A stretch of DNA of 64,000 nt from Paraspadella gotoi (lineage: Eukaryota > Animalia > Chaetognatha). The position numbers and the translations under genes were made by a program. The stretch covers positions 24,423,447-24,487,446 of the forward strand of contig CM119263.1 in NCBI GenBank assembly GCA_051294375.1, written 5' to 3'. The notes beneath the pieces are model-generated. The model searched no databases, was not told where the DNA came from, and saw only the letters and a program-made list of their open reading frames with translations. The first letter of the stretch is position 1, and each line of letters opens with the position of its first letter. This document shows positions 3,547-63,955 of this stretch, piece after piece.

Positions 3547-4967
3547 TGAGAGAGAGAGGAGACGAGAGACATGGATAATGTCGAAAAGAGGGTGTAATAA
3601 AAAAGATAGGAAGAAAACCTTGAATAAATATTATTTCTTGAAAAAATATTACCTTAAATTTTTAGTTAAAAGGGAAGTAAGGGACAAAAAAAAAAAAGGA
3701 ATAAAATCCGAATTGTGATAAAAAGGAAATAGAAAAAATAGAGTAAAAACAAAAAAAACAAAAACAAAAAAGGAAAAAAAAAACAACACAAAGAGCGCCA
3801 GAGACGTTTCCAGCAGACGGAGCGCGCGTTAAGGTGAAACTTTCTATCCAGTCGAACTCTTGCTAACTTTGACACCAAAAATACGCTCACCATAATATGT
3901 GTCTTTTGGTTGAGCGAGGAAATCATCAATTTTCTTACGCTTAAAGAAGAGAAAGAGAGAGGAAAAAAGAAGAGAGAGAGAGAGAGACTGAGAGAAGAGA
4001 GAGAGAGAGGAGGAGAGAGAGAGAAGGGAGCAGAGAGAGAGAGAGAGCAGAGAAGAGAGAGATGAGAGAGCAGAGAAGAATGACATTGATTAATAAATAG
4101 AAACAACCAGAAAAAAACCCCATGGATGGAAGTTTCCCCGAAAACCCGCAAAAGAAAAAAATGAAATGACGAAAGTGGAAGAGACACAGAAAAAGAAAGA
4201 AAGGAAGAATACAAAAAGTTAAACTAAAAAAAAAGAGTCAAATAAAGAAAACCGATCGAGGTGGAGGAGAAGAAAGATCTGGGAAAGAGAAGGGAAAAAG
4301 GATCGTTAAAAGAAAAAAAAAGAAGACGAATAAAAAAAAAATAGACGCCATGAAAAAAAAAGCTTTGTTTGAAAGGTAAAATGGGGAAGAATCGTAGAGA
4401 AAGAAAAGTAAAAGGAGACTTACAGCTGCCCGGGGAAGAAAATGGGGAAAGAAAAGCGGCCGTGAAAAAGAAAAGAAAGAAAAAAAAGCGGCCCGGGGAG
4501 GGATAGTAGGAAGAAATAAGGGGGGGAGGAAATATAGAGGAATAAAAGGTAGAAATATATTAATTTTGCTTTTTTTTCCCAGAAGTAAAAAAGGTTACAA
4601 AAGAAAAAGTTGCAAGTGGAGGAAGTACTAGGAGAGAATGAAAAACATTGGCCTAGAAAAGAAAAAAAGAAATAAAAGAAAAAAGCGGCCCAGGGAGGAA
4701 AAAGAAAAAAAAAGCGAGAGGAAAAAAAAGAGTGGGAGCGAAGAAACTCATTTTGCTCATTNNNNNNNNNNNNNNNNNNNNNNNNNNNNNNNNNNNNNNN
4801 NNNNNNNNNNNNNNNNNNNNNNNNNNNNNNNNNNNNNNNNNNNNNNNNNNNNNNNNNNNNNNNNNNNNNNNNNNNNNNNNNNNNNNNNNNNNNNNNNNNN
4901 NNNNNNNNNNNNNNNNNNNNNNNNNNNNNNNNNNNNNNNNNNNNNNNNNNNNNNNNTCTCCACTCAC

Positions 4968-5126
4968 TTCCTGTTCCTCCATTTCGTAAACACCAATCCT
5001 CTGTCCCGAAGACTTCACTGTGGCCCCGCGCAATGTGTAGCGGGCATTGACCGTTGAGGCCGTAAACCGCCTTTTGGGTGAAGCGACCCACCAAGTCCGG
5101 TTCCAAGCCCATGAAACGTTTCATCG
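4968..5126 (-). CDS. Candidate isolated coding exon with an ankyrin-repeat-like motif
   Basis: Strong acceptor (tttttttaattccctctctcgcag) and donor (gtgagt) enclose 159 nt open in phase 1-1: MKRFMGLEPDLVGRFTQKAVYGLNGQCPLHIARGHSEVFGTEDWCLRNGGTG. GQCPLHIA-RGH resembles the ankyrin G-x-TPLHIA--GH motif. Other exons were not found; N gaps are adjacent. Confidence 0.35.
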
Positions 5127-8141: not shown

Positions 8142-22242
<14,101 letters not shown>

Positions 22243-23729
22243 TGACCGCGAGAGGCGCTCGCGAAGAAAGCGAATCGTAAAAACAAAAGACTTAGCGGTT
22301 GTTGATCTCAAGCAGGGGGTGGTCGGACTTGTTCTGATCTGATTCTCGATTTAATCGCGAAAGAATACTAACTGGTCTGGTAAAACCCCTCTTCGGCTAA
22401 TGATATTTTTTTTTGTGATTAAAATGCCCACATCCGTATTTTAACACTTAAGGTTACACACGGTTATTTTTCAAAGTAAACAACATTTTCGCTAGAGATA
22501 AAAAATGATATTTATCATCTCATATTGGTACATCCAATAATTAAATTATTAATTATGAAACTTATAATAATACTTATAAATCAACGAATCAAATATTAAC
22601 AGCAAAATCGCAGAACAGATCAGGAAAGAAACTCAGTGGCCGATTACAATTTTTTTTCCCTTGAGTGCGGATACAAGCTTACACAATTAAAAAAAAAATA
22701 TGTTATCGTTCTATTTTTCTTTTTTTCAAAGGTGCTGTTTATAGTGTTGAATTACGCGTGATCTTCATTCATATCAGTGTGTGAGTCTGAGGCTAATTTG
22801 CAGGAGGACATCAATTTTCTTCGCCGATTGTTACGTGTAAAACAAAAATTAAAAGTTGCAGTGTCCGTTTTAAAAAAGACAAATTTTTTTCTTTTTGGTT
22901 TGTGTGAAAAGTTAAAGCATAACCATTCATGATTAATGATTATTGTAGCGAAGTTTCACTTAATATTCTGTAAATTAATGTATATAATCTTTTGTAGCTG
23001 CCCAACACGGAAACCAGCGCTTCATTTGTCCAGCTGGCAGGAACTGCGAAGTAGTTCTTGGTACATTTAAAATATTTTAAATAAGTTCAACTTTGATTTC
23101 GTTTTCAATCTGTGTTGGGAAGTAAATATTACTCCTCATAGGAGCTTGATACTTATAAAATAAATTCTTTCATATACTCAAATAACAACCGAATCTCTTT
23201 TGTAAGAATTTCAAACATCAAAATAAAACTAGCTAACTTCCAACAGTGAACACGTTCAACAAGAATCCTTAGTTTAGTATTTACGCCAAAAATAGAATAG
23301 GTTGAAACTCGAACTGTTGACAATCGTCTCCCAATGTTAATCCGACTCCATCTGGCGTGCCAAGGTCGCCGTTTTAATTAGCGCTCCTCCGAGAAAGGCG
23401 GTCGTAATTAAAAGAGGACAGTAAAAAGAGAGAAAGAGAGAATCCCCTTTCCTTTTTTTTTATCGGCCGGCCCAAAGACGATTCGGAGGATGGGAAAAGA
23501 CTGGAAAGTTGCCTTTGTCTTCGTCGTCGTCGTTCATGAGCAAAATCAATGAGACGTAACAAAAAACGTGTCAAAAGACCATTTTAAGAATTGGTGCGTT
23601 TGGCCAAAGCTAAACTTCTAAGCTCTTTAAAGAAATTAAGGATTTCCCGTCAAAAAAATAAGGCTACTCGAATTGTATAGCTTTCGAACGCATGTTTGTC
23701 GCTCTGGCCCGCGCGCACAACGATAGTCT

Positions 23730-26700
23730 TCACTCCGCCTTCTCTACTCTCTCCGTCTTTCGCAGCTCGGCGCAAACGACCGCGTGGCCCGCCTTCCAGT
23801 TGGCGCGTTGGCAGTCGGCAGAGCAGTACCACGCCCTCTTGCAACGCGAGCAGAAGGGGAATTTCTTGCCCTCGGGGGCGGCCTTGCGGCAGTGGAGACA
23901 CTCGTGCTCGCCGTCACCCTCAAACGAGCAGAGCGGGCATTTGCACTCGAAGGAGTAAGAGTGGAGCAACTGCGCCTGGCGATCGACGCGCGGTTGGCGA
24001 GGATCGATGTAAGAGATGAAACATTGCTCGTCCTTTTGAATCGGGCGGACGCTGTAGACGTGGACGCCGGGAAGACGGCGAATGAAGTCGCTCTTTACCT
24101 CGCAGTTGTGGAGGCAGCTGTGGTTAAGACAGGCGTGGAGAGGGAAGAGACCACCGAACATCGGTCGTCGAGGTTCTTCCTGTCAATGGGAAGGGAAGTT
24201 GAGTGGGAAAGAGAGAAGTGGTCGTCATTGAGATGAAATATAACAAAAAAAAATTTTGCAATCGGCAATTTCGAAGAGCTCTCGGGTCGTGAAAAAAAAA
24301 AACCGGTAGTCATCTCATGTTCAACAAAGGAAAGAAAAGGAACCTCTTAAAACCTTAAGCCCCTTGAAAGATAAGTCAAAACATTCTACCACCGTTTTAA
24401 TATTTGTCTATAAATTGTCTACAACGTAAAAATTTGTATTAGGAGAAGAAAACGTCTGAGCGTTGGAGGATTGAAAAAAAGATGGCAAAGCGGGAGAACA
24501 GCGTAGCAAAGCGATTTCCCAGCAGAGGCGCTCCGCCACAGTCGCACTGCACAGTGCACAGAAGCAAAACGTTTTCACCAAGCGCGGAATTCAACGAAAA
24601 TTCTCCCTCGTACATTATTTATGATTCCGCCCCGCCGGAAAAGGAAGACCGGAAAGCTTGGGAAGCGGAAAAGCCGGAAAGCAGGAAAAATCGGAAAGGC
24701 GGACGGGCGGAATGTCGTAAAACGTATGATGAATTCCCAGGAAAAAAACAAAAGGAATTAAGAGATAAAAAGCGGAACCGACTGGAGTCGGAGGAGCGGG
24801 AGATTTTGAATGACATCAGCGATGGAAAGAAGAAGACTCGAAACGATGATAAAAAAAAAGATTGAAAAGAGAGGGAGGAATAAAGAACTGGAATGGAAGA
24901 AGAAACGGGCTGTCATTCCGGAGAAGATTTTCTCGTGAATGGTGGAAAAAATATGAGGGGAATGTGAAAATGACAGATTTGATTCAAGGGCCGATGGGAA
25001 TGGAGAGAAGAAAGTGGGATCGGGTAATGGGTAAGTTGGTTGTGAGAGGAAAGGAGTAAAGAAGGAGAGAAAGGAGAAAAAGGGAAAGAAAACTCGAAAT
25101 AAAATAATCAAGATTCCTACTTGAAGATAGTCTTTGATTTCGTCGAGAACGCCTTCATAGGGAAACTCTTCGGCCAGGGTGTCGACGAAGATCTGATAGT
25201 TGGTCTTCGGAGGTCCGTAGAACTGCGCGTTATTGGCGAGTTGATAGTGGCGACCGTCGTACTCTCGTGCGTCGATGTCGTAGGGAACAGGGAGATTTTC
25301 GTTTCTGAAAAGCGACGGCAGAAAGCGATTAGAATGGCTGGATTTGGCCAACAAAAGGGCAAAGTCGTTTTCTTTCATTTTAAAAAGATTCTTATTTCTT
25401 AAGATGCTCGGATATTTAATCGTATCAGATTATGATATAGATGCATATCAACATATTGTGACGAATCCTAAATTCGCCTCCCGTATAGCTTGGTGAAACT
25501 CAGCTCGTCCCATTGGCTAAGGACAGCTAGGTACTCGTTCACCAACCGTGAGTTCCGTCTTCAATCCCCTCACGGTCACGCTGGTTAAAAGTGTGATGGT
25601 GTCGGCGTAAACACGCCAGTGACATGGGGTGGTCACTGCAGGTCCAAAGCCCTAAGCGCCAGTTATCGGGAGATGCCACAGACCCCGGGCATCACACATG
25701 TCTCCCCGTTTCCATAATATACATTATACAATTGAATAAATATTATGTTCAATATATGTCCTTTTAAAACCCGAAGGTTACCTGAAGATAACCTTGAGAT
25801 CGTCGAAGCAGGGTTTGACAGCTGGCGTTTGACTGTAGCCTTCCTTTCCGAAACCTATGAATCGGCGAAAAGGGTCTCGGGCTTTCTCCCAGTGAACCTC
25901 CGTCGCTTCTTCCGTTCCCTCCTCTTTCCACAGTTTATCCACCTGAAAGAGGCAAAATACTGAGTTTTTTTAAACTTCGGGAGAGCCAGAGCAATTTTAG
26001 AGTGTATAGAGAGACGGTTAGAAAAGTCACATGAGTCTTTCCATGAAATTGAAACATTCTTTGAAATATTATACCACTTCATTGATTGGGAAGCCAGCTA
26101 CTCTTGGAGTGAATAAACGAGACCGTGAGAGAGTCTTGATTGAAAGCTTAGTTATTATGTTATGTTATGTTAAGTTATTATCTTGTAAGAGTGATGGAGG
26201 TCATAAACCACCAAAGCCTGTCCAAAGTCAGGGGCAAGATAGCTTATTCATTAAATGAATGGACAATTTCATGACTATCCGAGTCGTGTCGTTAAATGGC
26301 ATGGCGCGACGGGGAATAGAAACAATAAACCTTGACGGGAGGTGCAGATGGGATTGATTTAATCCGTCCGGCAAATGACATCCGGGGATGAATTATCGTT
26401 GTCAAGGAAAATATGCTTCGTCGCGAAAGAAAAAAAATTTAAAATAAAAACCCACCACTTTCCCATGCCATTGCCCATGCCATTGCTTGTAAGGTGGAAA
26501 TTTAAATAAAACAATTAGCTACTTAATAAAGATATGAAATAAAAATTGTTTGAAAAGTTTTTAGTGATTCCGAATTTTAGAAACACTCACTTTCGCAACG
26601 ATTTTGGCCCATAGTTTGGCCAGCAGCAGATAGGACGGGATCGGTTTCGCGTTCCACCTTGAATAAGCTTCTTCGTCCTCCTTGGAACGGGCCAAGTATT

Positions 26701-28928
26701 CTTGCTTGTCTTCCAGGAATCGCCGATGTAGGCGTCCAGCGTCCGGATTAACGACCTGGCAGAGCACCTTGTGATAATCCTCCCAGGCGGCCAGGCGACA
26801 CTGCTCGGAGCAGTAGCATTCGTGACCGCATCGATCGCATAGCTCCTGCGCCTCGTTGGGCCAGTATTGCGTTACGATATCTTTGAGGTTTTCTGGATTT
26901 CGATTAGATAATTGAAAAGAAGCAAAATATCACTTCGCTTCAGTTTTATGACATAGTCCCCTAATTTGATCCGTCTACGTTTAAATTTTGTACCTGGCAT
27001 TTCTTTCCACTTTTCTTTAAAAACGTTCTCCGGCATGGAGGCGTCCATGCCGCAGTTGTAACACGCATAACACTCGATGGAAGTTTCTATCGTTTGAATA
27101 TGAATTGCAGCGAAGTCTCTCAGAACCACCTTTTTTTTAATTAAAGAGAGAGAGTGATTATAAATTATTAAAATCGAATTAATGCGGGGAAGGACGAAAA
27201 CGGAATGGGAAGCAGTCGGTTTGGCATCATTGGAAAACAAGTAAATATAAAATTTTGCAAAGCCAATGGCTACGAAGCTTACCGTTTATAAAAAAAAAAA
27301 CTGTTAAAAAAAATACGGGCCGGAGCGACAGAAGTGCCGAGGCACTAACCTCTCCTTCGGGGATGTAATCTCTGGCGTAAATCCCGCGAATCATTTCCGT
27401 TGTAAATCTTACTTCAACCTAGAAAATCGAAGAAAAAAAACCAAAGTTTTTTTTTTCATAGTTCCAACTGGTTGCTGATGGAAGGAAATATATTATATTT
27501 AGCCTTATCTAATTTCGTGAGAACCCAATTTTGGATAAGAATAGCTGGAAAATCCAATATATACGCAAAAATGACAAAAATAAAATAACGGAAATATTAA
27601 TAATAAGGATGATGACAATTAGGATCCTTGTATTTTGATGCTGTTGTCTTGTAAGTGTGATGGAGGCCTTAAACCACCATAGCCTGTGCAGTGTGCTAAG
27701 TCAGGGGCAAGATAGCTTATTTATTGAATGAATGAATAATTTTATATTTGTTGTACCAATTTCATTTATTAAATTGGTACAATTAAAAATTTCCCACGCA
27801 TTAAAAAATTAAGCTATCTTGCCCCAAGATTTGAACATGGTTTCTAATATGAAGAGAATTGATTTATCGCATCCGTTTTGATCCCTAGCCCAAAAAACCT
27901 GCAAATTGGTGCTCAACGGGTCGTAGTGTCTCTTTGTCCTCGTTTGCTGAAACAACAGTAGCGTTTCTTCATCATCTTCCTCCGCAGCTTTCGTCGCCGT
28001 CCGGAGCCAATGTTCGGCGGCAACGTAAAAACCCAAAGAGGCCAATATTTTTCCTATTATCAAAAAGCCAGGGTCTGAGTATTATCCAACGCTAGCAGGT
28101 GTCATGGTTTCATCAGGTAAAACGCGATCAGTGAAAGGATTCGAGGCACACCACACTTTTTCCTCCATCGCATCAAATAACCCAACTAGTATAACAACAA
28201 CAACCCTTTTATTCTTTTCTTTTTGAATTATGGGACCTAAACTTTCAAATCGCCAAACATGAACATATATCATAAATATTAAATAATTTGGATTAAGTAA
28301 GAAGTACAGATGACGTTCAATTCGTCAAAGCGACCAGTCAAATTTCCCCCGTGCGTTCCTACCTCCTAATTTTAACACTTCTGGAGTTCTCAGGCCCCTT
28401 TCGATGTTTGACAAAAAACGATACGCCTCTTTCAATTTTCCCAAATCGTACAGAACGGAGGCGTACTTGAACCAGTACTCGACTGTTTTTCTGTCCATTT
28501 GAATGGCCTTTAAATACCATTGGGATGCTTTGGTGATGTTGCCTAGGAAAGAAAATATGACGCGTTTTTCCTCTTAGAATATTTTTGTTTGGCACTGGGC
28601 CACGAAATGAGCTTCCACCTTGTTGAATGTACGAATCTCCCTTTTTGGCAATTTTTACTGCTTCTTGCGGATCGTTGAGTTTATCCGAGAGACACGGTTT
28701 TGACGTGAAGCCAATTTCGTCGAGACGGCGAGATTCGCTGGACCGAGAGAAAGCCGAAGTAGTTGATCAAGTAGGGTGATATTTATGACCATGAGATTTA
28801 AATTGAAAAACGTAAGATATGACGTTTTATTACCTCAAAAATAATTCTTTGTCACCGAAGTAAGGATTTTGGGGACACATACGAAGCGTTTCAAGTGCCG
28901 ACGGGGGATTAAACGGATCGCCCATCAT
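23730..28928 (-). CDS. SMYD-family lysine methyltransferase: N-terminal TPRs, split SET with MYND finger, post-SET, second C-terminal MYND finger
   Basis: Ten phase-consistent exons: 28928-28834, 28737-28619, 28542-28363, 28053-27899, 27418-27350, 27129-26994, 26892-26591, 25942-25782, 25304-25121, 24179-23730. Motifs: TPR GNITKASQWYLKAIQMDRKTVEYWFKYASVLYDLG; SET-N RGIYARDYIPEGE; MYND CYACYNC...CDRCGHECYCSEQCRLAAWEDYHKVLC; SET-C LNHSC..NC and ISYI; post-SET FECKCPLC; second MYND CLHC...CSRCKRAWYCSADCQRANWKAGHAVVC. Confidence 0.9.
25472..25710 (+). mobile_element. ~230-nt highly structured element (SINE/retrozyme-like) carrying a twister motif, in SMYD intron 8
   Basis: GC-rich island in an AT-rich intron. 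Visible helices: CTCCCGTATAGC/GTTATCGGGAG (closing), TTGGTGAA/TTCACCAA, CCGTGAG/CTCACGG and GATGCC/GGCATC, plus the twister fold. Confidence 0.55.
25580..25663 (+). ncRNA. Twister self-cleaving ribozyme, circularly permuted type P5
   Basis: P5 GCTGGT/GCCAGT; P2 GTGT(25591)/ACAC(25611); L1 GATGG and TAA (predicted U|A cleavage at 25608|25609); short P1 TGTCGGCG; GC(25615) pseudoknot with the loop GC; P3 CAGTGAC/GTCACTG; P4 AGG/CCT; L4 TCCAAAGC, whose CCA pairs with TGG of GATGG (a compensatory variant of canonical UCCCAAGC/GAGGG). Confidence 0.8.
26180..26240 (+). ncRNA. Short type P5 twister-ribozyme copy (slightly degenerate), SMYD intron 7
   Basis: ATCTTG-TAA-GAGT-GATGG-AGGTCA-TAA-ACC-AC-CAAAG-CCTG-TCCAAAGT-CAGG-GG-CAAGAT. 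P5, P4 and both pseudoknots (TGG/CCA, AC/GT) are intact; the P1 palindrome and P2 are partly mutated. Confidence 0.65.
27646..27713 (+). ncRNA. Short twister-family copy with disrupted L4 (probably inactive), SMYD intron 4
   Basis: GTCTTG-TAA-GTGT-GATGG-AGGCCT-TAA-ACC-AC-CATAG-CCTG-[TGCAGTGTGCTAAGT]-CAGG-GG-CAAGAT. The loop is 7 nt longer and lacks CCA. Confidence 0.6.
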
Positions 28929-33161: not shown

Positions 33162-37746
<4,585 letters not shown>

Positions 37747-44437: not shown

Positions 44438-44766
44438 GCGCTCTTTTGTTTTTCGATTGCGGGTCCCACGAGCAGGAGTGCTATCTAGAGTTTTTGTGAC
44501 AAAACGTAATGGACAAAATGCCATACTTTTATTTTGCGATGCGATTTATAAATAAAGTTATATGTACGTATTATAGTTGGAAAACATTTTTCAATCTTTT
44601 AAATGTACGTGTTTGGTTTTTATTAAGATACAACTTATTACAATTTTTTCTAATCAGAAATAAAAAAAAACATTTAGAAATAATTCTTAATAACCATACG
44701 ATACTTTCCTCACTCCCTATGTGAGCCATTTCCCTTTTCTCATTTAAACTTCTAAATTTTCACTCT

Positions 44767-44850
<84 letters not shown>

Positions 44851-51019: not shown

Positions 51020-51971
51020 CGCCGTTTATGCATTTACGATGATGTCGTTATCTTCGTCACGAGAGTGACGTATCGGACTTGACGTGGGCGGAGGAGAAGG
51101 CGGTGGCGGGGGGTGGCGGTGGCCGTGACATCGAGGGCGTTGCCATGGGAGACGGATGGGATTCATGGGTGCCCTACAGAAATGAACCCTTTGACCTCGG
51201 GCATAGTAGCGTCGATGCGAGAAGTCGTAAAATTAATTGCGAAAGGATTGTTTTGAAACGGATGCTTAACACTTGCCCCTGGAATGTTAACTTAACATGT
51301 TAAGGCACGAGGAACCCTGAGATCGTCTTGTTATTGGGAAGGAAGTTTTCATGCGCGATTCATTGAGAGATATCGCTTGATTAAATAATTTCCGAAAGGA
51401 GAGAGAGAGAGNNNNNNNNNNNNNNNNNNNNNNNNNNNNNNNNNNNNNNNNNNNNNNNNNNNNNNNNNNNNNNNNNNNNNNNNNNNNNNNNNNNNNNNNN
51501 NNNNNNNNNNNNNNNNNNNNNNNNNNNNNNNNNNNNNNNNNNNNNNNNNNNNNNNNNNNNNNNNNNNNNNNNNNNNNNNNNNNNNNNNNNNNNNNNNNNN
51601 NNNNNGAGAGAGAGAGAGAGAGAGAGAGAGAAAGGCTAGCTTTTATAACCGAAGGGCAATCGAATTCTTACACCATAGAGCAACATCCTTTTCATGATTA
51701 TGGATGAATTCCAGGAACGTACATTACCTGAGATTTACAATGGGGCTTGTACAAAATGTTATGAAATAATTATGATGAACCAACGATAGAACAATAAAGA
51801 AAGCAAAAAAAATTGGCAATTGAATGGATGGAAGCTGCGAGCTGAATTTTTTAACTGATTTTTAATTCAGAAAAAAAGGGATAAAAGAGGAAATTGAGAG
51901 TCGAAAAATTGGAACGATTTCTCCCGCCATGAAATTAATTAATCGAGAGCTAAAAGTTTTCTCTCTTTGGC

Positions 51972-54232: not shown

Positions 54233-55825
54233 CCGGGTCCATTCTCGCCCCGATGGGTCGAGAAGGACAACCGGGCAGCGACGGGCTCGAACCCCTTTTG
54301 TCAATCCCTTCGGTTTCTCCTCGTGTTTGTCGCGTTTTTTGTCATTTATTTTCTATTCATTCGTCTTTTGTTTTTCTTTTTGTTTCGTTTCGATCTTTTC
54401 TGTCTTTTCTTCTCTCGGCCACGAGCGCCGGCGCGGAAACGACGACGACAACGACGACGACATCGATTCTTGTTTGATCGGCAATAAATTCACACCTCAT
54501 CAAATCCGCGGCCTCGGCCGTGAGTCTCCTCGGTTTTAAGGGGGCGGGAAAGAGGGGGGGGGGAGGCTAAAGATGTTTTGTGCCGGGCGGAGGTGTTGAT
54601 TGCCGGACGCCGGACGGAACGTCGGTCCACCCCGATCGGTCGGTCGGTCGTTGAATTCCAAAACACACAAAAACCTTAAAAGCCGATTTCGATTCTTGTA
54701 TGGGAATTTTTTTTGCGTCGCTATGCAAACTAGACGAACCGTTGGAAAATCAAACAGCGTCGACGTTAACTATGACGCATTTTTTCGTTTGATTTAATTT
54801 TTTTGACCCGCCGTTGACAGAAATTTATGTTGTTTTTTTTTCCCTCTCCATTGTTGCCAAGTGATCGTCGCAATTGTGGTTTTGAAAAGGCTTTAACTGT
54901 TAAATCTTCAATTCTTGAAACCTAAAACCAAGCTGCGGTATAAGTACTAGTAATTTCCTGTATATGAACCAAAACTTTCAAAATATTTCGTGTTTTTGTA
55001 TTACTAATATTATAATAACCCAATTGAAAAACCGGGTCCATTCTCGCCCCGATGGTCGAGAAGGACAAACCGGCAGCGACGGGCTCGAACCCTTTTGTCA
55101 ATCCCTTCGTTTCTCCTCGTGTTTTGTCGCGTTTTTTGTCATTTATTTTCTATTCATTCGTCTTTTGTTTTTCTTTTTGTTTCGTTTCGATCTTTTCTGT
55201 CTTTTCTTCTCTCGGCCACGAGCGCCGGCGCGGAAACGACGACGACAACGACGACGACATCGATTCTTGTTTGATCGGCAATAAATTCACACCTCATCAA
55301 ATCCGCGGCCTCGGCCGTGAGTCTCCTCGGTTTTAAGGGGGCGGGAAAGAGGGGGGGGAGGCTAAAGATGTTTTGTGCCGGGCGGAGGTGTTGATTGCCG
55401 GACGCCGGACGGAACGTCGGTCCACCCCGATCGGTCGGTCGGTCGTTTGAATTCCAAAACACACAAAAACCTTAAAAGCCGATTTCGATTCTTGTATGGG
55501 AATTTTTTTTTGCGTCGCTATGCAAACTAGACGAACCGTTGGAAAATCAAACAGCGTCGACGTTAACTATGACGCATTTTTTCGTTTGATTTAATTTTTT
55601 TGACCCGCCGTTGACAGAAATTTATGTTGTTTTTTTTTCCCTCTCCATTGTTGCCAAGTGATCGTCGCAATTGTGGTCTTGAAAAGCTTTAACTGTTAAA
55701 TCTTCAATTCTTGAAACCTAAAAACCAAGCTGCGGTATAAGTACTAGTAATTTACTGTATATGAACCAAAACTTTCAAAATATTTCGTGTATTAGTATTA
55801 CTAATATTATAACCCAATTGAAAAA
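54233..55825. repeat. Near-identical ~800-bp tandem duplication (54233-55031 / 55032-55825)
   Basis: Both copies start CCGGGTCCATTCTCGCCCCGATGG and end AACCCAATTGAAAAA. Differences are mostly single-base homopolymer indels. Confidence 0.92.
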
Positions 55826-56054: not shown

Positions 56055-56638
56055 AGGGCGTTTGAGAGCAAAGGGCGATTAAGAGCAGAGGGCGATTGAG
56101 AGCAGAGGGGCGATTGAGAGCAAAGGGGCGATTGAGAGAAAAGGGCGCGATTGAGAGCAAAGGGGCGATTGAGAGCAAAGAGGCGATTGAGAGCAAAAGA
56201 GGCGATTGAGAGCAAAAGGGCGATTGAGAGCAAAGGGGCAGAGAGAAAAGGCGATTGAGTAGAAAGGGGTGATGGATAGCAGAGGGGATTGAGAGCAAAT
56301 GGGCGATTGAGAGAAAGGGACCGATTAAGAGCTGAGGGGCGATTGAGGGCAAAGGGGCGATTGAGAGCAACGGGCGATTGAGGCAAAGGGACGTTGAGAG
56401 CAAAGGGGCGATGAAGAGCAGAGGGGTGGTTGAGAGCAAAGGGGTAAATTAAGAGCAAATGGGCGATTGAGAGCAAAGGGCCGAGTAAGAGCAGAGGTGA
56501 TTGAGAGCAAAGGGGGATTGATACAAGGTGAGGAGAGCAGAGGGCGATTGAGAGCAAAGCGGCGATTGAGAGCAAAAGGGGCGATAAGAGCAGAGGTGCG
56601 ATTTGAGAGCAAAGGGGCGATTGAGAGCAAAGGAGCGC
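56055..56638. repeat. Degenerate ~18-bp minisatellite (GATTGAGAGCAAAGGGGC, ~30 units)
   Basis: Direct reading. It produces the repetitive LLSIAP/ALNRPF/CSQSPL ORFs on the minus strand. Confidence 0.92.
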
Positions 56639-58473
56639 TTGGAAAAACGATGTTTTTGCTTTGGGAAATACAGCTATGATGATTTAGAATCTTTACGTAA
56701 GAACGTTGGCAAAATAATTTTAAAAAAGTTTCGTATTTATTGTATTTGTTGATCCTAGAAAAAATTGTAACATTAATTTATAAAAAAACAATGTTATGTT
56801 TGTAAAAACTCGTCCATTTTCCATAATTCACCAGGAACCACGGTAATACTAATAGGTGCTTAACTACGTAATGTCATCGATCCCTCGTCTTTTGATCACT
56901 CGATNNNNNNNNNNNNNNNNNNNNNNNNNCGCTTTCGATCGCTTTCGATCGCTTCGGCGCTAAAAAGCTCAAAGTGAGTCTCGCCGCGTGACGTCTTCGA
57001 CTTCTGCTCCGCGGGATTCCACCGAAACAAAGACGCCATTCCTCTCCGCTGATTGCCGCCAAGTCGGCCGCCGACTCGCGTTCCTCTAGCCGACGCAACC
57101 GACAACACTCGGTCCACTATCTCCGGCGCGAACATCGGGTCCGCCGACGAATTAACGAGCCAGCTGTCTCGGTTGGTGATCTTATTATTATTGTTGTTGT
57201 TACTTGCTGCACCATTCACGGTTTAGACACGGTGAAACCTGCTGATAACAAACAAGGTGTTAACTACATAGCATATAATTGCATCGAGTTAAAATTCGAT
57301 ATTCTCAAATTGCCGCTCGAGCAGTTATACTAATAGTCTAATACCCAGAAACGTCAACACAAAATACAAAGTACTGAGCTTAGTCATTGGTCAATGGTCA
57401 TAAGAAGAATATCCCAAAAGTTTTGAATTGATTCCGGGTTTTATAAAATTTAATTTTTCGCCCCATTTAGACTATGATAAAATTTTAAACGCAACATAAT
57501 TTCAAAATACTTTTATTGCTCGAAGAGAGATAGTGAATTGTTAAGTATTTTGTCATTAAAAAGAAATTAATTTCGTTCGATCACTGCATTACCATCCCGT
57601 TTCTATCCCCGGGGCCACGCCGAGGCTGCAATTAATTTTCCATTTTTCTACCAAATTTTCAGTAAAAATATGTTTAAAAAAATGTTGTATCTTCGCAGAG
57701 GTTTTTGTTCGGGTGGAGCCGCTGAGTGACCAGATGAACTCCCCTTTCCCCCCAAAGATTCCCGCAAAGTTACCAGCCCCCGCAGCTGGTCATCCTCCAC
57801 TTAGGGGCACTTTACTTCCCCACTCCGCTCAACCCTCCTCCTCTTCGCTTTTTAACCGCCCTCTGGCGGAAACGCCCGAAGACACCCGGCCGCAGCGGCG
57901 GCGGCCGCGGCGGAGGCGGCCCTCTCGCCTGGTTTCGGTTCCTCGTTTATTTACAAAGCGCCGTTCATTTGTTTATGACTGGTTTAAAGAGATTCAAGAT
58001 TTCCACCCTTTGCCCGGCGTAATTGGTAGCATCGGGTTTTCTTAGGGGGGAAGGATTGGGGGGGGAGAAATGGGGAGAGGGGAAGTTGGGAGAAAGGGAA
58101 ACAGGGAACTGAGATTAAGGTGGGGAAAGTTAAGACGGAAGACAAGTTTAGCGGGAACGTTGCGCAAGAAAAGCAAGTCAATTTGCAGATGCATAAATTA
58201 CTTAATTGGAATACACAAGTGTCTGGGAACTGAGGAAAATTCGGTCAGATGTCTGTAATGTTGCGAAATCGAAGACGATTAACTAGAAGGTTTAACAGTT
58301 TAAAAAAAATATGGATGAAAAAAAAAAGCGTTCAGAAAAAGCTTAGCGAGTCTTTTACCCAAAATATGGGACCCATTAAGAGACAACAAAGTTTCGGTGG
58401 TTCAACCGAAAAAGGTTCACATATCAACGTGAAATAAATCTTCTTTTTTAACCACGAAACTTAGCCATCGATA

Positions 58474-61533: not shown

Positions 61534-61694
61534 GCTTTTGCTGTAGTTTTAAGAAAAATGTAAAAAAAAGAAAAAAAAACTAACATAAAAAATGGCAAAA
61601 AGAAAAAAGAAGAATACAAATGCCATAAGTAAGGAGAAAGAGGGAAAGAAAATTGGAAAAGAAGAAATATGAGAGAGAGAGAGAGATAGGGAGA

Positions 61695-61741
<47 letters not shown>

Positions 61742-63761
61742 AGGAGAGAGAAGAGAGAGAGAGAGAGAGAGATTGGAAATTGGGTCTCAGGCTCGGATCG
61801 GTCTCGAGGATCGAACAGCAAAGAGAAGTTAAACCTCAGAGGAACAAAGGCCACGCAGAAAATTCGCCCCAAGATAATAAGATGGGGAAACCTCGAGTTA
61901 TCACCTCGGGTGGTGGTGGATGGGGCGGGGGTGAAGGGTCTGGGTGAGGAGCGGAGGCGGGGTTCTGGTGAGATATGGGAGAGAAGTTTGGGAGAGAATA
62001 TCGTATGTGATTAGAGATGACAGTTAGGACGATGGGGAAGGTTAAAATTGGGGAGGATATTTATGTACACAAAAGGGGACGGGTTGGAGAAAAGATGCGA
62101 GGTTGATAAGTTGATGAAGAAGAAACACAAAAGCCCACAAATGACGGTAGGATTTTATGAAATGTGATGCTTTTTAAGACCCGCCAAATGTCGATATACT
62201 TAACTTAACAATTTTGTCTAGATCACCAGTTTCAGAACATTCCAACAAACTTCCACCACACGATGGCGCCTGAAGCACTGTTGCCGCCTGATCCACCCAC
62301 GGCATCGTCGGCGGCGGCGGCGCCGTTTTTTTCCTTTTTCGCGCCGGGAAAAAAATCGACGCCGGGATTTTGTGGGATTTGGTTCGATTCTCTTTCGGGT
62401 CTCATATTCGCCGCTGAAATTCGATGGAGTCGCGCTTGGGTATTTGGAGCTGGAGCTGGCGTTGGAGCTGGAGTAGATGGGGTTGCGGCTGGCGCTGGCA
62501 GGGTGAGTTAGTGTCTTAAGGCGTCTGATTTAAGTTCTTTGTTGTTTGTGGTCTCAAAAATTGAGAATTGGAATCGAAGTAGAGATATTTGTGATTCCTG
62601 GTTCCTTATTCCTGGTTCCTAATAGTACCCCTTTCCCTATCTTTCCTGGATAACCCTGGTTTTCCCCGNNNNNNNNNNNNNNNNNNNNNNNNNTCGCGGC
62701 GGGGATCGGGGAGAAGAGGGGGATCGAGGAGAAAGGGGGAATGGGGAGAAAGGGGGATCGGGGAGAAAGGGGGGATCGAGGAGAAAGGGGGGGATCGAGG
62801 AGAAAGGGGATCGATGCGGGGAAAACCAGGGTATCCAGGAAAGATAGGGAAAGGGGTACTATCTATCAGGAACCAGAATAAGGAACCAGGAATCACAAAT
62901 ATCTTACTTCGATTCCAATTCTCATTTTTGAGACCAACAAACAACAAAGAACTTAAATCAGACGCCTTAAGAACACTAAACTCACCCTGCCAGCGCAGCC
63001 ACGCAACCCCATCTACTCCAGCTCCAACGCCAGCTCCAGCTAAATACCAAGCGCGACTCCAATCGAATTCTCAGCGGCGAATATGAGACCCGAAAGAGAA
63101 TCGAACCAAATCCCACAAAAATCCCGGCGTCGATTTTTTTCCCGGCGCAGAAAAAGGAAAAAAACGGCGCCGCCGCCGCCGGACGATGCCGTGGGTGGAT
63201 CAGGCGGCAACAGTGCTTCAGGCGCCATCGTGTGGTGGAAAGTTTGTTGGAATGTTCTGAAACTGGTGATCTAGACAAAATTGTTAAGTTAAGTATATCG
63301 ACATTTGGCGGGTCTTAAAAAGCATCACATTTTCATAAAATCCTACCGGTCATTTGTGGGCTTTTGTGTTTCTTCTTCATCAACTTATCAACCTCGCATC
63401 TTTTCTCCAACCGTTCCCTTTTGTGTACATATAGTCCTCCCCAATTTTAACCTTCCCCATCGTCCTAACTGTCATCTCTAATCACATACGATATTCTCTC
63501 CCAAACTTCTCTCCCATATCTCACCAGAACCCCGCCTCCGCTCCCACCCAACCTTCACCCCCGCCCCATCACCACCACCCGAGGTGATAACTCGAGGTTT
63601 CCCCATCTTATTATCTTGGGGCAATTTTCTGCGTGGCCTTTGTTCCTCTGAGGTTTAACTTCTCTTTGCTGTTCGATCCTCGCAGACCGATCCGAGCCTG
63701 AGACCCAATTTCCAATCTCTCTCTCTCTCTCTCTCTTCTCTCTCCTCTCTTCTCCTCTCTC

Positions 63762-63812
<51 letters not shown>

Positions 63813-63955
63813 TCTTCATATTTCTTCTTTTCCAATTTTTCTTTCCCTCTTTCTCCTTACTTATGGCATTTGTATTCTTCTTTTTTCTTTTTGCCATTTT
63901 TTATGTTAGTTTTTTTTTCTTTTTTTTACATTTTTCTTTAAACTACAGCAAAACG

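What the first reader, a model, noticed from the sequence alone, without database searches (positions are those of the whole stretch)
25580..25663. Near-intact type P5 twister ribozyme antisense in a SMYD intron
Seen: every twister element can be placed. P2 GTGT/ACAC flanks the GATGG and TAA internal-loop strands; GC pairs with the loop GC; P3 is CAGTGAC/GTCACTG; P4 AGG/CCT closes TCCAAAGC; P5 is GCTGGT/GCCAGT. The usual GAGGG/UCCC pseudoknot appears as GAUGG/UCCA, a compensatory change. Established: twister ribozymes occur as P1/P3/P5 permutations, cleave at U|A of the UAA, and in animals are often linked to retroelements. Inference: this is a genomic, possibly active self-cleaving RNA that a gene-centred annotation would miss.
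Basis: partly seen in the sequence, partly recalled or inferred. Interest (0 to 1): 0.88.

Follow-up and report, generated by a model that had tools for sequence, protein, structure and literature searches.

The report
Twister ribozyme inside a high-copy repeat
This 84-base stretch has every core feature of a twister self-cutting RNA and lies in a short repeat found in very many copies in this invertebrate's genome; it is predicted, not shown, to cut itself, and the standard RNA-family database misses it.

Summary

Rfam does not call it. The whole-window scan at gathering thresholds found nothing. The best match is a partial twister-P1 alignment of 18.1 bits against a threshold of 67.2.

Three other results favour a real twister:
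- A literature-based type-P5 descriptor hits the window once, here. It gave 1 core hit in 1000 shuffles and 0 with a P3 hairpin.
- The G-to-U change in GAGGG and the C-to-A change in the loop fall on the two partners of one T1 pseudoknot pair.
- The motif is the middle of a ~261-base dispersed repeat (25457-25717) whose contig depth is hundreds- to thousands-fold above the flanks. At the 3 twister positions where nearly all other copies differ, each majority letter repairs a pair, in P1, P4 and P5.

So this is a slightly worn passenger copy of a twister-bearing, SINE-like retroposon. It lies antisense between SET/MYND exons.

Cleavage, expression and the mobile-element class (tRNA-derived SINE or Penelope-like derivative) are untested.

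The parts
25457..25717 (+). One unit of a dispersed, high-copy, SINE-like repeat. The window copy differs from the family-majority letters at 9 or more positions.
   Evidence: Summed contig depth rises from single-copy level in the flanks (X1 24.8, X2 233.9, X4 12.7) to X1 15,617-136,866, X2 92,091-780,519 and X4 6,915-60,497 in the bins between 25458 and 25717. Flanks of other copies are A/T-rich and unlike each other, with loose-end agreement of 0.41-0.45. There is only one copy in the window.
25457..25579 (+). Repeat 'head', possibly tRNA-derived. An A-box-like motif lies at 25487-25497 and a B-box-like motif at 25558-25568. The B-box-like motif is spoiled in the window copy at 25558-25559.
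   Evidence: The head folds into a closed three-arm structure, -34.4 kcal/mol, z -2.54, with 1 of 200 shuffles as good. Family-majority G,G at 25558/25559 makes 9 of 9 specified B-box positions fit; the window copy fits 7 of 9. The box consensus is recalled. ARAGORN and Rfam see no tRNA.
25580..25585 (+). P5, 5' strand. This is the open stem that makes the ribozyme type P5.
   Evidence: Pairs with 25658-25663 as G.U, C-G, U-A, G-C, G-C, U.G. The majority C at 25663 turns the outer G.U into G-C.
25586..25590 (+). L2 3' strand (UAAAA).
   Evidence: One A of the run is missing in 26-46% of family depth. The published layout has GUAAA here.
25591..25594 (+). P2, 3' strand (GUGU).
   Evidence: Four Watson-Crick pairs with 25611-25614.
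25595..25599 (+). L1 3' strand (GAUGG). G25595 is the predicted general base. A25596 would pair with A25647. U25597, G25598 and G25599 form T1 with A25646, C25645 and C25644.
   Evidence: Roles are taken from PMC5408937 passages and PMC11662667 section 32.
25600..25607 (+). P1 mini-hairpin with 2 pairs and a 4-base loop.
   Evidence: U25600.G25607 and G25601-C25606. The majority A at 25607, at 95.6-98.9% of depth, makes U-A.
25608..25610 (+). UAA. The predicted scissile bond lies between U25608 and A25609. A25609 is the predicted general acid.
   Evidence: Aligned to the UAA of Rfam twister-P1. Roles.
25611..25616 (+). P2 5' strand (ACAC), then the conserved GC that would form T2 with G25649 and C25650.
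25617..25638 (+). P3 hairpin with 7 Watson-Crick pairs and an 8-base loop.
25639..25654 (+). P4 and loop L4 (GUCCAAAGC, followed by the C that closes G25642).
   Evidence: Pairs are A-U, G-C and G-C, with an outer C/A mismatch. The majority G at 25654, at 92.7-98.1% of depth, makes C-G. The loop matches the Rfam consensus except for the compensated C-to-A change.
25655..25663 (+). 3-base linker (AGC), then the P5 3' strand at 25658-25663.
25664..25717 (+). Repeat 'tail'. Depth is lower and other copies carry alternative continuations.
   Evidence: The fold is not better than shuffles, z -0.44. Depth falls to about a fifth of the head's. Loose ends behind 25662 and 25675 show other tails.
23730..24182 (-). 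Context: an ORF with the end of a SET domain and a MYND finger, a host gene exon on the opposite strand.
   Evidence: Pfam SET 2.6e-07 and zf-MYND 1.9e-09.
26561..26929 (-). Context: an ORF with a MYND finger, a host gene exon on the opposite strand.
   Evidence: Pfam zf-MYND 4.2e-05, 23.9 bits against a cut-off of 22.7.

Best explanation
Window 25580-25663 (+) is one slightly worn copy of a twister-class ribozyme motif in type-P5 order. It forms the middle of a ~261-base dispersed high-copy repeat (25457-25717), and it would likely cut its own transcript between U25608 and A25609.

Shown:
- the motif anatomy;
- its rarity in shuffled sequence;
- its place inside a repeat whose contig depth is hundreds- to thousands-fold above the flanks;
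- the fact that the letters carried by nearly all other copies repair three weak pairs of the model.

Inferred:
- The repeat is a non-autonomous retroposon. The head upstream of the ribozyme looks tRNA-like, with Pol III box-like motifs on the same strand, so the family's transcripts would carry the ribozyme in sense.
- When transcribed, P5, P2, P3 and P4 would form, and the two pseudoknots (T1: UGG with CCA; T2: GC with GC) would dock the loop on the internal loop.
- G25595 and A25609 would then act as general base and general acid. Cleavage would give a 5' piece ending in a 2',3'-cyclic phosphate (head plus 29 bases of ribozyme) and a 3' piece starting with a 5'-OH at A25609.
- By analogy with the hammerhead-bearing SINE-like elements of schistosomes and the twisters at the 5' ends of RTE elements, the ribozyme would be the family's RNA-processing module.

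The window copy is a passenger between exons of an opposite-strand SET/MYND gene. Its B-box-like motif is mutated, so it may rarely be transcribed.
For: (1) All defining motifs are present and in register: UAA; a 4-pair P2; the GC/GC T2 pairs; a 7-pair P3; P4 with its closing G-C; the U25643/A25648 and A25596/A25647 positions; the general-base G and general-acid A (roles).

(2) The two departures from the consensus (third letter of GAGGG is U, fifth letter of the loop is A) are the two partners of one T1 pair, giving U-A in place of G-C.

(3) The descriptor gives 1 hit in the window, at this site. In 1000 dinucleotide shuffles of both strands it gives 1 core hit and 0 with a P3 of 4 or more pairs.

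(4) Rfam's twister-P1 model aligns UAA, GCC, P3 and the loop at 25604-25660, 18.1 bits, E 0.55 for 651 bases against 4227 families. By my arithmetic that is about 0.013 expected per 64-kb window for this one family.

(5) Family evidence:
- 2320, 2442, 1269 and 204 contigs of runs X2, X1, X4 and X9 lie on the stretch.
- Inside the 84 bases there are exactly 3 positions where nearly all family depth differs from the window: 25607 G>A at 95.6-98.9%, 25654 A>G at 92.7-98.1%, 25663 T>C at 95.6-99.2%.
- All 3 convert a wobble or a mismatch of the model into a Watson-Crick pair, in P1, P4 and P5.
- If the fold were a chance reading, a random transition would do this at 8 of 84 positions. The chance of 3 of 3 is about 9e-4 (my arithmetic).

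(6) Published high-throughput tests report that imperfections in P1, P2 and outer P4 are tolerated and that P1 is dispensable (PMC11662667 section 32). The window copy's defects are therefore of the tolerated kinds.

(7) Ribozymes in retroposons are established biology: hammerhead SINE-like elements in Schistosoma (PMC6765202 passages) and twister variants at Perere-3/RTE 5' ends (PMC8501958; PMC7761336 passage).
Against: - No Rfam family reaches its gathering score in the window. The twister-P1 hit has 18.1 of 67.2 bits. The one hidden clan match, whose identity I could not see, scores lower still. The 5' half alone gives no twister hit.
- P1 has only 2 pairs, one of them a wobble.
- The nested twister fold (-18.2 kcal/mol) loses to a competitor fold (-25.3). 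The competitor contains a 5-pair hairpin at 25604-25617 that buries the cut site. Pseudoknot energy is not counted in these figures.
- The descriptor was written after I had seen the sequence.
- The family letters come from depth-weighted contigs of one organism, 4 runs from 3 studies, not from aligned full copies. No covariation among copies could be measured.
- No run on record as RNA holds the locus, so neither transcription nor cleavage is shown.
- The 24 best-supported loose ends of 682 show no pile of copies starting at 25609. Nothing therefore indicates that cleaved RNA is what gets copied back into the genome.
- The tRNA-like reading of the head is not backed by ARAGORN or Rfam.
Confidence: 0.72

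Rival explanations
1. The family descends from a real twister, but the ribozyme is a dead relic. The repeat spread for other reasons, and the twister part no longer cleaves, either in the family as a whole or at least in this copy.
For: - P1 is reduced to 2 pairs.
- A competitor fold is 7 kcal/mol better than the nested twister fold in the window copy.
- Rfam scores are far below threshold.
- Copies keep both halves of the ribozyme, and no pile of copies starts at the cut site among the loose ends shown. If cleaved RNA were the retrotransposition template, such a pile would be expected.
- The window copy has 3 pair-weakening changes and a spoiled B-box-like motif.
Against: - All catalytic and near-invariant letters are intact in the window copy and, by the majority letters, in the family.
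- The T1 change is compensated, which points to selection for the fold at some time.
- The defects present are of kinds reported as tolerated.
Confidence: 0.15
2. The match is a chance look-alike: a repeat sequence that happens to fit a permissive twister descriptor and has no evolutionary link to twister ribozymes.
For: - There is no significant covariance-model hit.
- The descriptor is post hoc and gave 1 core hit in 1000 shuffled windows. Across a scan of very many windows, some core-only matches are expected.
Against: - 0 of 1000 shuffles combine the core with a P3 hairpin.
- P5 is present as well.
- The two consensus departures compensate each other.
- 3 of 3 family-majority differences repair pairs of the model. 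The chance of this is about 9e-4 if the model were spurious (my arithmetic).
Confidence: 0.08
3. The twister reading is the same, but the carrier is of a different class. On this view the repeat is not a tRNA-derived SINE. It is a non-autonomous derivative or solo terminal repeat of a Penelope-like element of the Naiad type, a twister counterpart of animal 'retrozymes'.
For: - Flanks of the copies are A/T-rich on both sides. The window copy sits in TA-rich sequence with no poly(A) or simple-repeat tail.
- An earlier unchecked note of this scan reports type-P5 twister-like folds in Naiad terminal repeats of another genome (e1-6818684).
- No tRNA is detected in the head.
Against: - No reverse-transcriptase or GIY-YIG ORF stands out next to the element in the ORF list (not scanned with Pfam).
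- The best-supported joints show no tandem or partial-tandem arrangement.
- The head carries B-box-like and A-box-like motifs in the right order and strand, and it folds into a closed three-arm structure.
Confidence: 0.3

Closest known systems
Twister self-cleaving ribozyme, type P5 (Rfam RF02684, clan CL00120; class described by Roth et al. 2014, a paper not held here and known to me through reviews PMC5408937 and PMC6765202)
   Same: - Same order of elements with P1 and P3 closed and P5 open.
- UAA cut site, a 4-pair P2, the GC/GC pseudoknot and a 3-pair pseudoknot plus A.A.
- P4 closed by G-C.
- General-base G and general-acid A in place.
   Different: - One T1 pair is U-A instead of G-C.
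- P1 is a 2-pair mini-hairpin.
- A 3-base linker lies before P5.
- It scores far below Rfam thresholds.
- It sits in an animal high-copy repeat, not in a bacterial or environmental setting.
Sm-alpha / Sj-alpha SINE-like retroposons of Schistosoma, which carry a hammerhead ribozyme behind a Pol III promoter (as described in PMC6765202, passages)
   Same: A short, non-coding, very abundant repeat. A promoter-like head is followed by a small self-cleaving ribozyme on the same strand.
   Different: - The ribozyme class is twister, not hammerhead.
- Copies here look dispersed as single units, whereas the schistosome elements are described as often tandem.
- Pol III transcription here is only inferred from box-like motifs.
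Twister variants at the 5' end of Perere-3 / RTE non-LTR retrotransposons (PMC8501958; PMC7761336 passage)
   Same: A twister-class ribozyme that is part of a retroelement family with thousands of copies in an invertebrate.
   Different: - Those are type P1 and sit at the very 5' end, so the cleaved RNA keeps almost the whole ribozyme, and the target-site duplication supplies one P1 strand.
- Here the ribozyme is type P5 and internal. About 150 bases of the repeat lie upstream of the cut, so cleavage would separate head from tail.
Animal non-LTR retrozymes and Penelope-like elements with hammerheads (PMC7229834 passages; bioRxiv 10.64898/2026.07.22.740005 passages; PMC8557442 passages)
   Same: Small non-autonomous repeats built around a self-cleaving ribozyme. 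A/T-rich insertion sites recall the (TA)n bias reported for Naiad elements.
   Different: - Those carry hammerheads and occur in tandem, giving circular RNAs.
- No tandem arrangement and no circular RNA is seen or testable here.

Membership tests
Twister ribozyme class | Cleavage-site loop N-A-A, with A at +1 (general acid) and A at +2 | tested here: met
   U25608, A25609, A25610, aligned to the model's UAA. The requirement comes from PMC11662667 section 32.
Twister ribozyme class | Four-pair P2 bracketing the internal loops | tested here: met
   25591-25594 with 25611-25614, 4 of 4 Watson-Crick pairs. Four pairs are stated in PMC5408937.
Twister ribozyme class | Conserved GC in L2 pairing with GC of loop L4 (T2, called PK1 in PMC11662667) | tested here: met
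   G25615-C25650 and C25616-G25649.
Twister ribozyme class | Three Watson-Crick pairs plus A.A between L4 and the L1 3' strand (T1, called PK2 in PMC11662667) | tested here: met
   U25597-A25646, G25598-C25645, G25599-C25644, with A25596 opposite A25647. One pair is U-A instead of the consensus G-C, changed on both sides (for the register).
Twister ribozyme class | Conserved guanine at the start of the L1 3' strand (general base) | tested here: met
   G25595 directly follows P2.
Twister ribozyme class | P4 with closing G-C and the U/A pair in L4; loop letters G-U-C-C-C-A-A-G-C | tested here: met
   8 of 9 loop letters are identical, and the ninth is the compensated change. G25642-C25651 and U25643/A25648 are present. 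The outer P4 pair is mismatched in the window copy and is C-G in 92.7-98.1% of family depth.
Twister ribozyme class | P1 stem next to the cut site | tested here: inconclusive
   Only 2 pairs (U.G and G-C) with a 4-base loop. P1 is said to 'typically contain at least two base pairs' (PMC8501958 section 17) and to be dispensable (PMC11662667).
Twister ribozyme class | Site-specific self-cleavage | not testable with these tools
   No raw RNA reads were available. Only contigs were served, and they cannot show RNA ends.
Rfam twister families (RF03160 type P1, RF02684 type P5; clan CL00120) | Covariance-model score at or above the curated gathering score | tested here: not met
   0 hits at gathering score in 64,000 bases. 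Twister-P1 scores 18.1 bits against 67.2, and one lower clan hit is hidden. This is an operational cut-off of particular models, not a property of the RNA. The P1 model cannot align the permuted 5' half.
Type-P5 permutation | P1 and P3 closed by loops, with the chain ends in P5 | tested here: met
   The order along the strand is P5a, A-run, P2b, L1b, P1 hairpin, UAA, P2a, GC, P3 hairpin, P4/L4, P5b. Types are defined in PMC5408937.
tRNA-derived SINE | tRNA-related head with Pol III A and B boxes | tested here: inconclusive
   B-box-like motif at 25558-25568: 9 of 9 specified positions fit with the family-majority letters, 7 of 9 in the window copy. A-box-like motif at 25487-25497: 7 of 9 positions fit. 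The consensus motifs are recalled; the letters are. The fold is a closed three-arm structure, z -2.54. ARAGORN and Rfam find no tRNA.
tRNA-derived SINE | Dispersed high-copy short repeat, target-site duplications, and a tail shared with a partner LINE | tested here: inconclusive
   Dispersed and high-copy: met. Target-site duplication: not discernible in the TA-rich flanks. Partner LINE: not testable, because no genome is held.

The most novel reading that the evidence does not exclude
This is one copy of an undescribed retroposon family with thousands of copies in an invertebrate. Its conserved body is a complete, circularly permuted (type-P5) twister ribozyme with a co-varied T1 pseudoknot, sitting directly behind a tRNA-like Pol III head. 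That makes it a twister counterpart of the schistosome hammerhead SINEs. Because it falls far below Rfam thresholds, such twister-bearing repeats may be common and systematically uncounted in animal genomes.
Probability: 0.45. Interest if true: 0.72.

Novelty: new variant of a known kind. Interest (0 to 1): 0.6.

Why it matters
The biological role of twister ribozymes is known in very few cases. The one worked-out animal case is 5'-end processing of RTE elements in Schistosoma.

A family in which a full type-P5 twister sits inside a short repeat, behind a promoter-like head, would be a second and different arrangement. Cleavage there separates head from tail instead of trimming a leader. With thousands of natural variants in one genome, it would also be a ready-made mutational data set.

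It also shows a blind spot. A motif with every core feature scores 18 bits in Rfam, because the family is permuted, has a minimal P1 and carries a compensated pseudoknot pair. Censuses based on gathering thresholds would therefore miss whole families.

For the SET/MYND gene itself the finding probably means little, since the copy is a passenger on the opposite strand.

Tried and rejected
- **RNA evidence.** No RNA holder was listed by the look-up of sequencing runs. X9 is only guessed to be RNA. It is kept as contigs, covers only the two repeats of the stretch, and has zero depth in 24 of 30 bins. Nothing can be said about expression, strand or RNA ends.
- **Whole genome.** None is held, so no census of copies, subfamilies or partner elements was possible.
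- **Other copies or relatives in public collections.**
  - A pattern for the U-A variant in metagenome contigs gave 1 locus, L001. It has no P3 hairpin and no Rfam twister hit, and about one chance match was expected.
  - A canonical type-P5 pattern in genome contigs gave 2 loci from one MAG, L002 and L003, which Rfam does not recognise as twisters.
  - The same pattern in viral contigs gave 0 loci.
  - I therefore could not build a type-P5 covariance model of my own, and the formal score in the right permutation is missing.
- **Rfam on sub-stretches.** The head (25450-25590) gave only a spurious mir-216 match. The 5' half of the ribozyme (25572-25618) gave only a spurious L17DE match.
- **Second copy in the window.** None was found, using a 19-mer with up to 3 mismatches and blastn with word size 7, whose next best hit had E 0.6.
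- **Plain MFE folding.** The + strand gave z -1.31 and the - strand z -0.67, and neither gave the twister fold. This is uninformative for a pseudoknotted RNA.
- **Supplements and papers.** The supplementary tables of PMC11662667 list about 1000 new twister candidates, including crustaceans, and could show whether this family is already listed. They could not be read because the file is too large. Roth et al. 2014 (PMC3867598) is not held.
- **Earlier notes of this scan.** There are none for this genome and none with similar sequence.
- **Host identity.** The RSK exon has at most 73% identity to molluscs and decapods alike. The host is an invertebrate, and I could not place it further.
- **Rejected readings.**
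  - A tandem, retrozyme-like array: flanks are unique sequence at single-copy depth, and no head-to-tail joint appears among the joints shown.
  - A link between the ribozyme and regulation of the SET/MYND gene: it is a repeat copy on the opposite strand.
- **First script.** I fixed it and re-ran it.
Full report
**What is in the sequence**

I checked every pair by script.

| Element | Position | Detail |
|---|---|---|
| P5 | 25580-25585 with 25658-25663 | six pairs, the two outer ones G.U |
| A-run | 25587-25590 | |
| P2 | 25591-25594 with 25611-25614 | four Watson-Crick pairs |
| L1 3' strand | 25595-25599 | GAUGG |
| P1 | 25600-25607 | mini-hairpin, U.G and G-C around a four-base loop |
| Cut-site loop | 25608-25610 | UAA |
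| GC | 25615-25616 | |
| P3 | 25617-25623 with 25632-25638 | seven pairs, eight-base loop |
| P4 | 25640-25642 with 25651-25653 | outer C25639/A25654 mismatch |
| Loop L4 | 25642-25650 | GUCCAAAGC |

P1 and P3 are closed by loops and P5 is open. That is the definition of the type-P5 permutation (PMC5408937, passages).

**The pseudoknots and the 'compensatory change'**

The review PMC5408937 (passages read) describes the tertiary contacts as follows:
- The loop's first G pairs with the C that follows the loop.
- The loop's U pairs with its second A.
- The GC between them pairs with the conserved GC of L2 (T2).
- The remaining four loop letters, CCCA, pair with the L1 3' strand: three Watson-Crick pairs with GGG plus an A.A pair (T1).

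In that register the window gives G25615-C25650 and C25616-G25649 for T2. For T1 it gives G25599-C25644, G25598-C25645 and U25597-A25646, with A25596 opposite A25647.

The only two letters that depart from the consensus are the third of GAGGG and the fifth of the loop. They are the two partners of one pair.

G25595 stands where the general base stands. A25609 and A25610 stand where the general acid and the essential second A stand (PMC11662667 section 32).

**Is it more than chance?**

Rfam says no.
- At gathering scores nothing in the 64,000 bases matches any of the 4227 families.
- With E-values on 25300-25950, the twister-P1 model aligns 25604-25660 (UAA, GCC, P3, loop). The score is 18.1 bits against a threshold of 67.2, E 0.55. 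One lower-scoring match of the same clan was suppressed, and I could not see which family it was.
- The 5' half alone gives no twister match.

A type-P1 model cannot align the permuted 5' half, so this is a weak test.

I therefore wrote a descriptor from the published domain layout (table 1 of PMC8501958; register). It requires, in order:
- AA, four bases of P2, GA, three T1 bases;
- 5-31 bases;
- AA, four bases of P2, GC;
- 0-60 bases;
- P4 with at least two of three pairs, GU, three T1 bases, AAGCC, P4.

P2 must pair at four of four positions and T1 at three of three.

The descriptor finds one site in the window, 25589-25654 on the + strand with a seven-pair P3, and none on the minus strand. 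In 1000 dinucleotide-preserving shuffles of the window, both strands, it finds one core match and none with a P3 of four or more pairs. I wrote the descriptor after seeing the sequence, so it is not a blind test.

**The surroundings change the picture: it is a repeat**

No whole genome is held. Nine public runs of one coded organism hold the stretch, from three studies, and all are kept as contigs.

Laying four of them on 23500-27500 and then on 25380-25760 gave the following:
- Summed contig depth sits at single-copy level in the flanks: 24.8 in X1, 233.9 in X2, 12.7 in X4.
- It jumps at about 25457 and falls back at about 25717.
- In the bins from 25458 to 25717 it reaches 15,617-136,866 (X1), 92,091-780,519 (X2) and 6,915-60,497 (X4).

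The tool warns that this figure is not a copy number. I read it only as 'very many copies'. Between 204 and 2442 contigs per run lie on the 381 bases.

What lies beyond the two ends in other copies is A/T-rich and inconsistent, with loose-end agreement of 0.41-0.45. No head-to-tail joint is among the joints shown. The copies are therefore dispersed, not tandem. The window holds a single copy.

**The family letters support the fold**

One search lists the positions where other copies differ from the window. Within the 84 bases there are exactly three where nearly all depth differs.

| Position | Change, window to majority | Share of depth | Effect on the model |
|---|---|---|---|
| 25607 | G to A | 95.6-98.9% across the four runs | P1's U.G becomes U-A |
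| 25654 | A to G | 92.7-98.1% | the C/A mismatch at the foot of P4 becomes C-G |
| 25663 | T to C | 95.6-99.2% | the outer G.U of P5 becomes G-C |

If the twister model were a chance reading of the window copy, differences should tend to break pairs. Only 8 of the 84 possible transitions would turn a non-Watson-Crick pair of the model into a Watson-Crick pair. Three of three therefore has a probability of about 9e-4 (my arithmetic, not a tool result).

Under the alternative, the family's founder had the cleaner fold and the window copy has since picked up three mutations.

Minor variants inside the ribozyme are all below about 7% of depth. The exception is the loss of one A from the A-run, at 26-46%. 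No covariation among copies could be measured from this kind of output.

Outside the ribozyme the window copy differs from the majority at 25530, 25558, 25559, 25665, 25678 and 25681. It is a mildly diverged copy.

**What the repeat is**

*The head.* The 123 bases upstream of the ribozyme (25457-25579) fold into a closed three-arm structure of -34.4 kcal/mol, z -2.54, with 1 of 200 shuffles as good.
- With the majority G,G at 25558-25559, positions 25558-25568 fit a Pol III B-box consensus at nine of nine specified positions. The window copy fits seven of nine.
- Positions 25487-25497 fit an A-box consensus at seven of nine positions.
- Both motifs lie on the ribozyme's strand and in the right order. 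The consensus motifs are recalled, not from a call.
- ARAGORN and Rfam find no tRNA there.

I therefore call the head 'possibly tRNA-derived'.

*The tail.* The tail (25664-25717) has lower depth, and other copies carry alternative continuations. Its fold is not better than shuffles.

*My best reading.* The repeat is a SINE-like retroposon whose body is the ribozyme. The closest parallel is the hammerhead-bearing SINE-like elements of Schistosoma (PMC6765202, passages).

*A serious rival for the carrier.* It could be a non-autonomous derivative of a Naiad-type Penelope-like element.
- The copies here sit in A/T-rich sequence without an A-tail.
- An earlier, unchecked note of this scan reports type-P5 twister-like folds in Naiad terminal repeats of another genome.

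I could not decide between the two readings without the genome.

**How it most likely works**

*Shown:* the motif and its family context.

*Inferred:*
- Family transcripts, made by Pol III from the head or by read-through, fold P5, P2, P3 and P4.
- T1 and T2 dock the loop on the internal loop.
- The 2'-OH of U25608 attacks the phosphate before A25609, with G25595 as base and A25609 as acid.
- Cleavage leaves a 2',3'-cyclic phosphate on a 5' piece of about 150 bases (head plus 29 bases of ribozyme). It leaves a 5'-OH on a 3' piece that carries P2a, P3, P4, P5b and the tail.

This differs from the one worked-out animal case, type-P1 twisters at the 5' end of Perere-3/RTE elements. There, cleavage trims a leader and the element keeps its ribozyme (PMC8501958, abstract and sections 3 and 17; PMC7761336 passage). 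Here cleavage would separate promoter-like head from tail.

The copies keep both halves. No pile of copies starting at 25609 appears among the 24 loose ends shown of 682. New copies were therefore probably made from uncleaved RNA. What the cut is for is open.

*The window copy itself.*
- It has all catalytic letters.
- Its defects are a wobble in a two-pair P1, a mismatch at the outer P4 pair and a wobble in P5. These are of the kinds that a high-throughput study of about 2600 natural twisters found tolerated. That study also states that P1 is dispensable (PMC11662667 sections 32-33).
- The nested twister fold (-18.2 kcal/mol) is beaten by a competitor (-25.3). The competitor includes a five-pair hairpin at 25604-25617 over the cut site. 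G25607, the window-specific letter, is part of that hairpin.
- When the pseudoknot and loop bases are kept unpaired, the best fold is the twister fold without P1 (-19.7).
- The copy's B-box-like motif is spoiled, and it lies on the strand opposite to the host gene. It may seldom be transcribed.

**Host context**

- Minus-strand ORFs at 23730-24182 (end of a SET domain plus zf-MYND) and 26561-26929 (zf-MYND) flank the repeat. 'Antisense in an intron of a SET/MYND gene' is therefore reasonable, though the exon linkage is inferred.
- A p90 RSK gene lies at about 33488-37746 (+). Its last large exon is at most 73% identical to proteins of molluscs and decapods alike. The host is thus an invertebrate not represented in the protein collection.

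**Novelty**

Known:
- Twisters of all three permutations.
- Twisters abundant in some invertebrate genomes and linked to retroelements.
- Twisters predicted in more than a thousand further species, including crustaceans (PMC11662667 section 35).

Not found:
- No paper in the held library describes a twister inside a SINE-like repeat. I searched; one search found five papers holding both 'twister ribozyme' and 'short interspersed', none describing such an element.
- The candidate tables of PMC11662667 could not be read, and Roth et al. 2014 is not held. The family may therefore already be listed somewhere.
- Another unchecked note of this scan describes a type-P5 twister variant in a thousands-copy repeat of a different genome. 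It shares no sequence with this one.

**Verdict**

I rate this a new variant of a known kind. It is a real, well-supported twister motif in a new kind of carrier, with activity untested.

Noticed in passing
window 26047-26269 (also 1467-1520 and 27692-27745): A second, unrelated repeat about 330 bases downstream of the twister repeat has even higher contig depth, up to about 2.2 million summed depth in X2 against about 230 in the flanks. Partial copies occur elsewhere in the window (repeat family D17, 69-87% identity).
   Followed up: no
window 54326-55812: A tandem duplication with a period of about 797 bases. Several blocks are 91-100% identical (families D14-D16 and D18-D20).
   Followed up: no
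window 61536-63953: A large near-perfect inverted structure with nested arm pairs of 125, 110 and 93 bases at 97-100% complementarity (I2, I3, I23). This may be a palindromic insertion or an assembly artefact.
   Followed up: no
window 56056-56650: An array of roughly 18-19-base tandem repeats with about 26 copies (families D6 and D9).
   Followed up: no
whole window, e.g. 2184-2310, 13294-13438, 15946-16178, 44741-44850: (CT)n/(GA)n microsatellites are very frequent, with dozens of tracts. There are also several runs of N (assembly gaps), for example near 440-790, 4840-5000 and 51400-51600.
   Followed up: no
window 33488-37746 (+): Exons of a p90 ribosomal S6 kinase (RSK) gene. The 262-residue ORF at 36958-37746 is at most 73% identical to any protein in the collection, with molluscs and decapod crustaceans equally close.
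   Followed up: partly
window 25547-25575 (+): A 7-pair hairpin inside the repeat head produces spurious sub-threshold mir-216 matches in Rfam (15.1 bits against 53.5).
   Followed up: yes
window 23730-24182 and 26561-26929 (-): The host gene appears to carry two MYND fingers, one after the end of the SET domain and one in the upstream ORF. This is unusual for a classical SMYD layout, and the gene model has not been checked.
   Followed up: no
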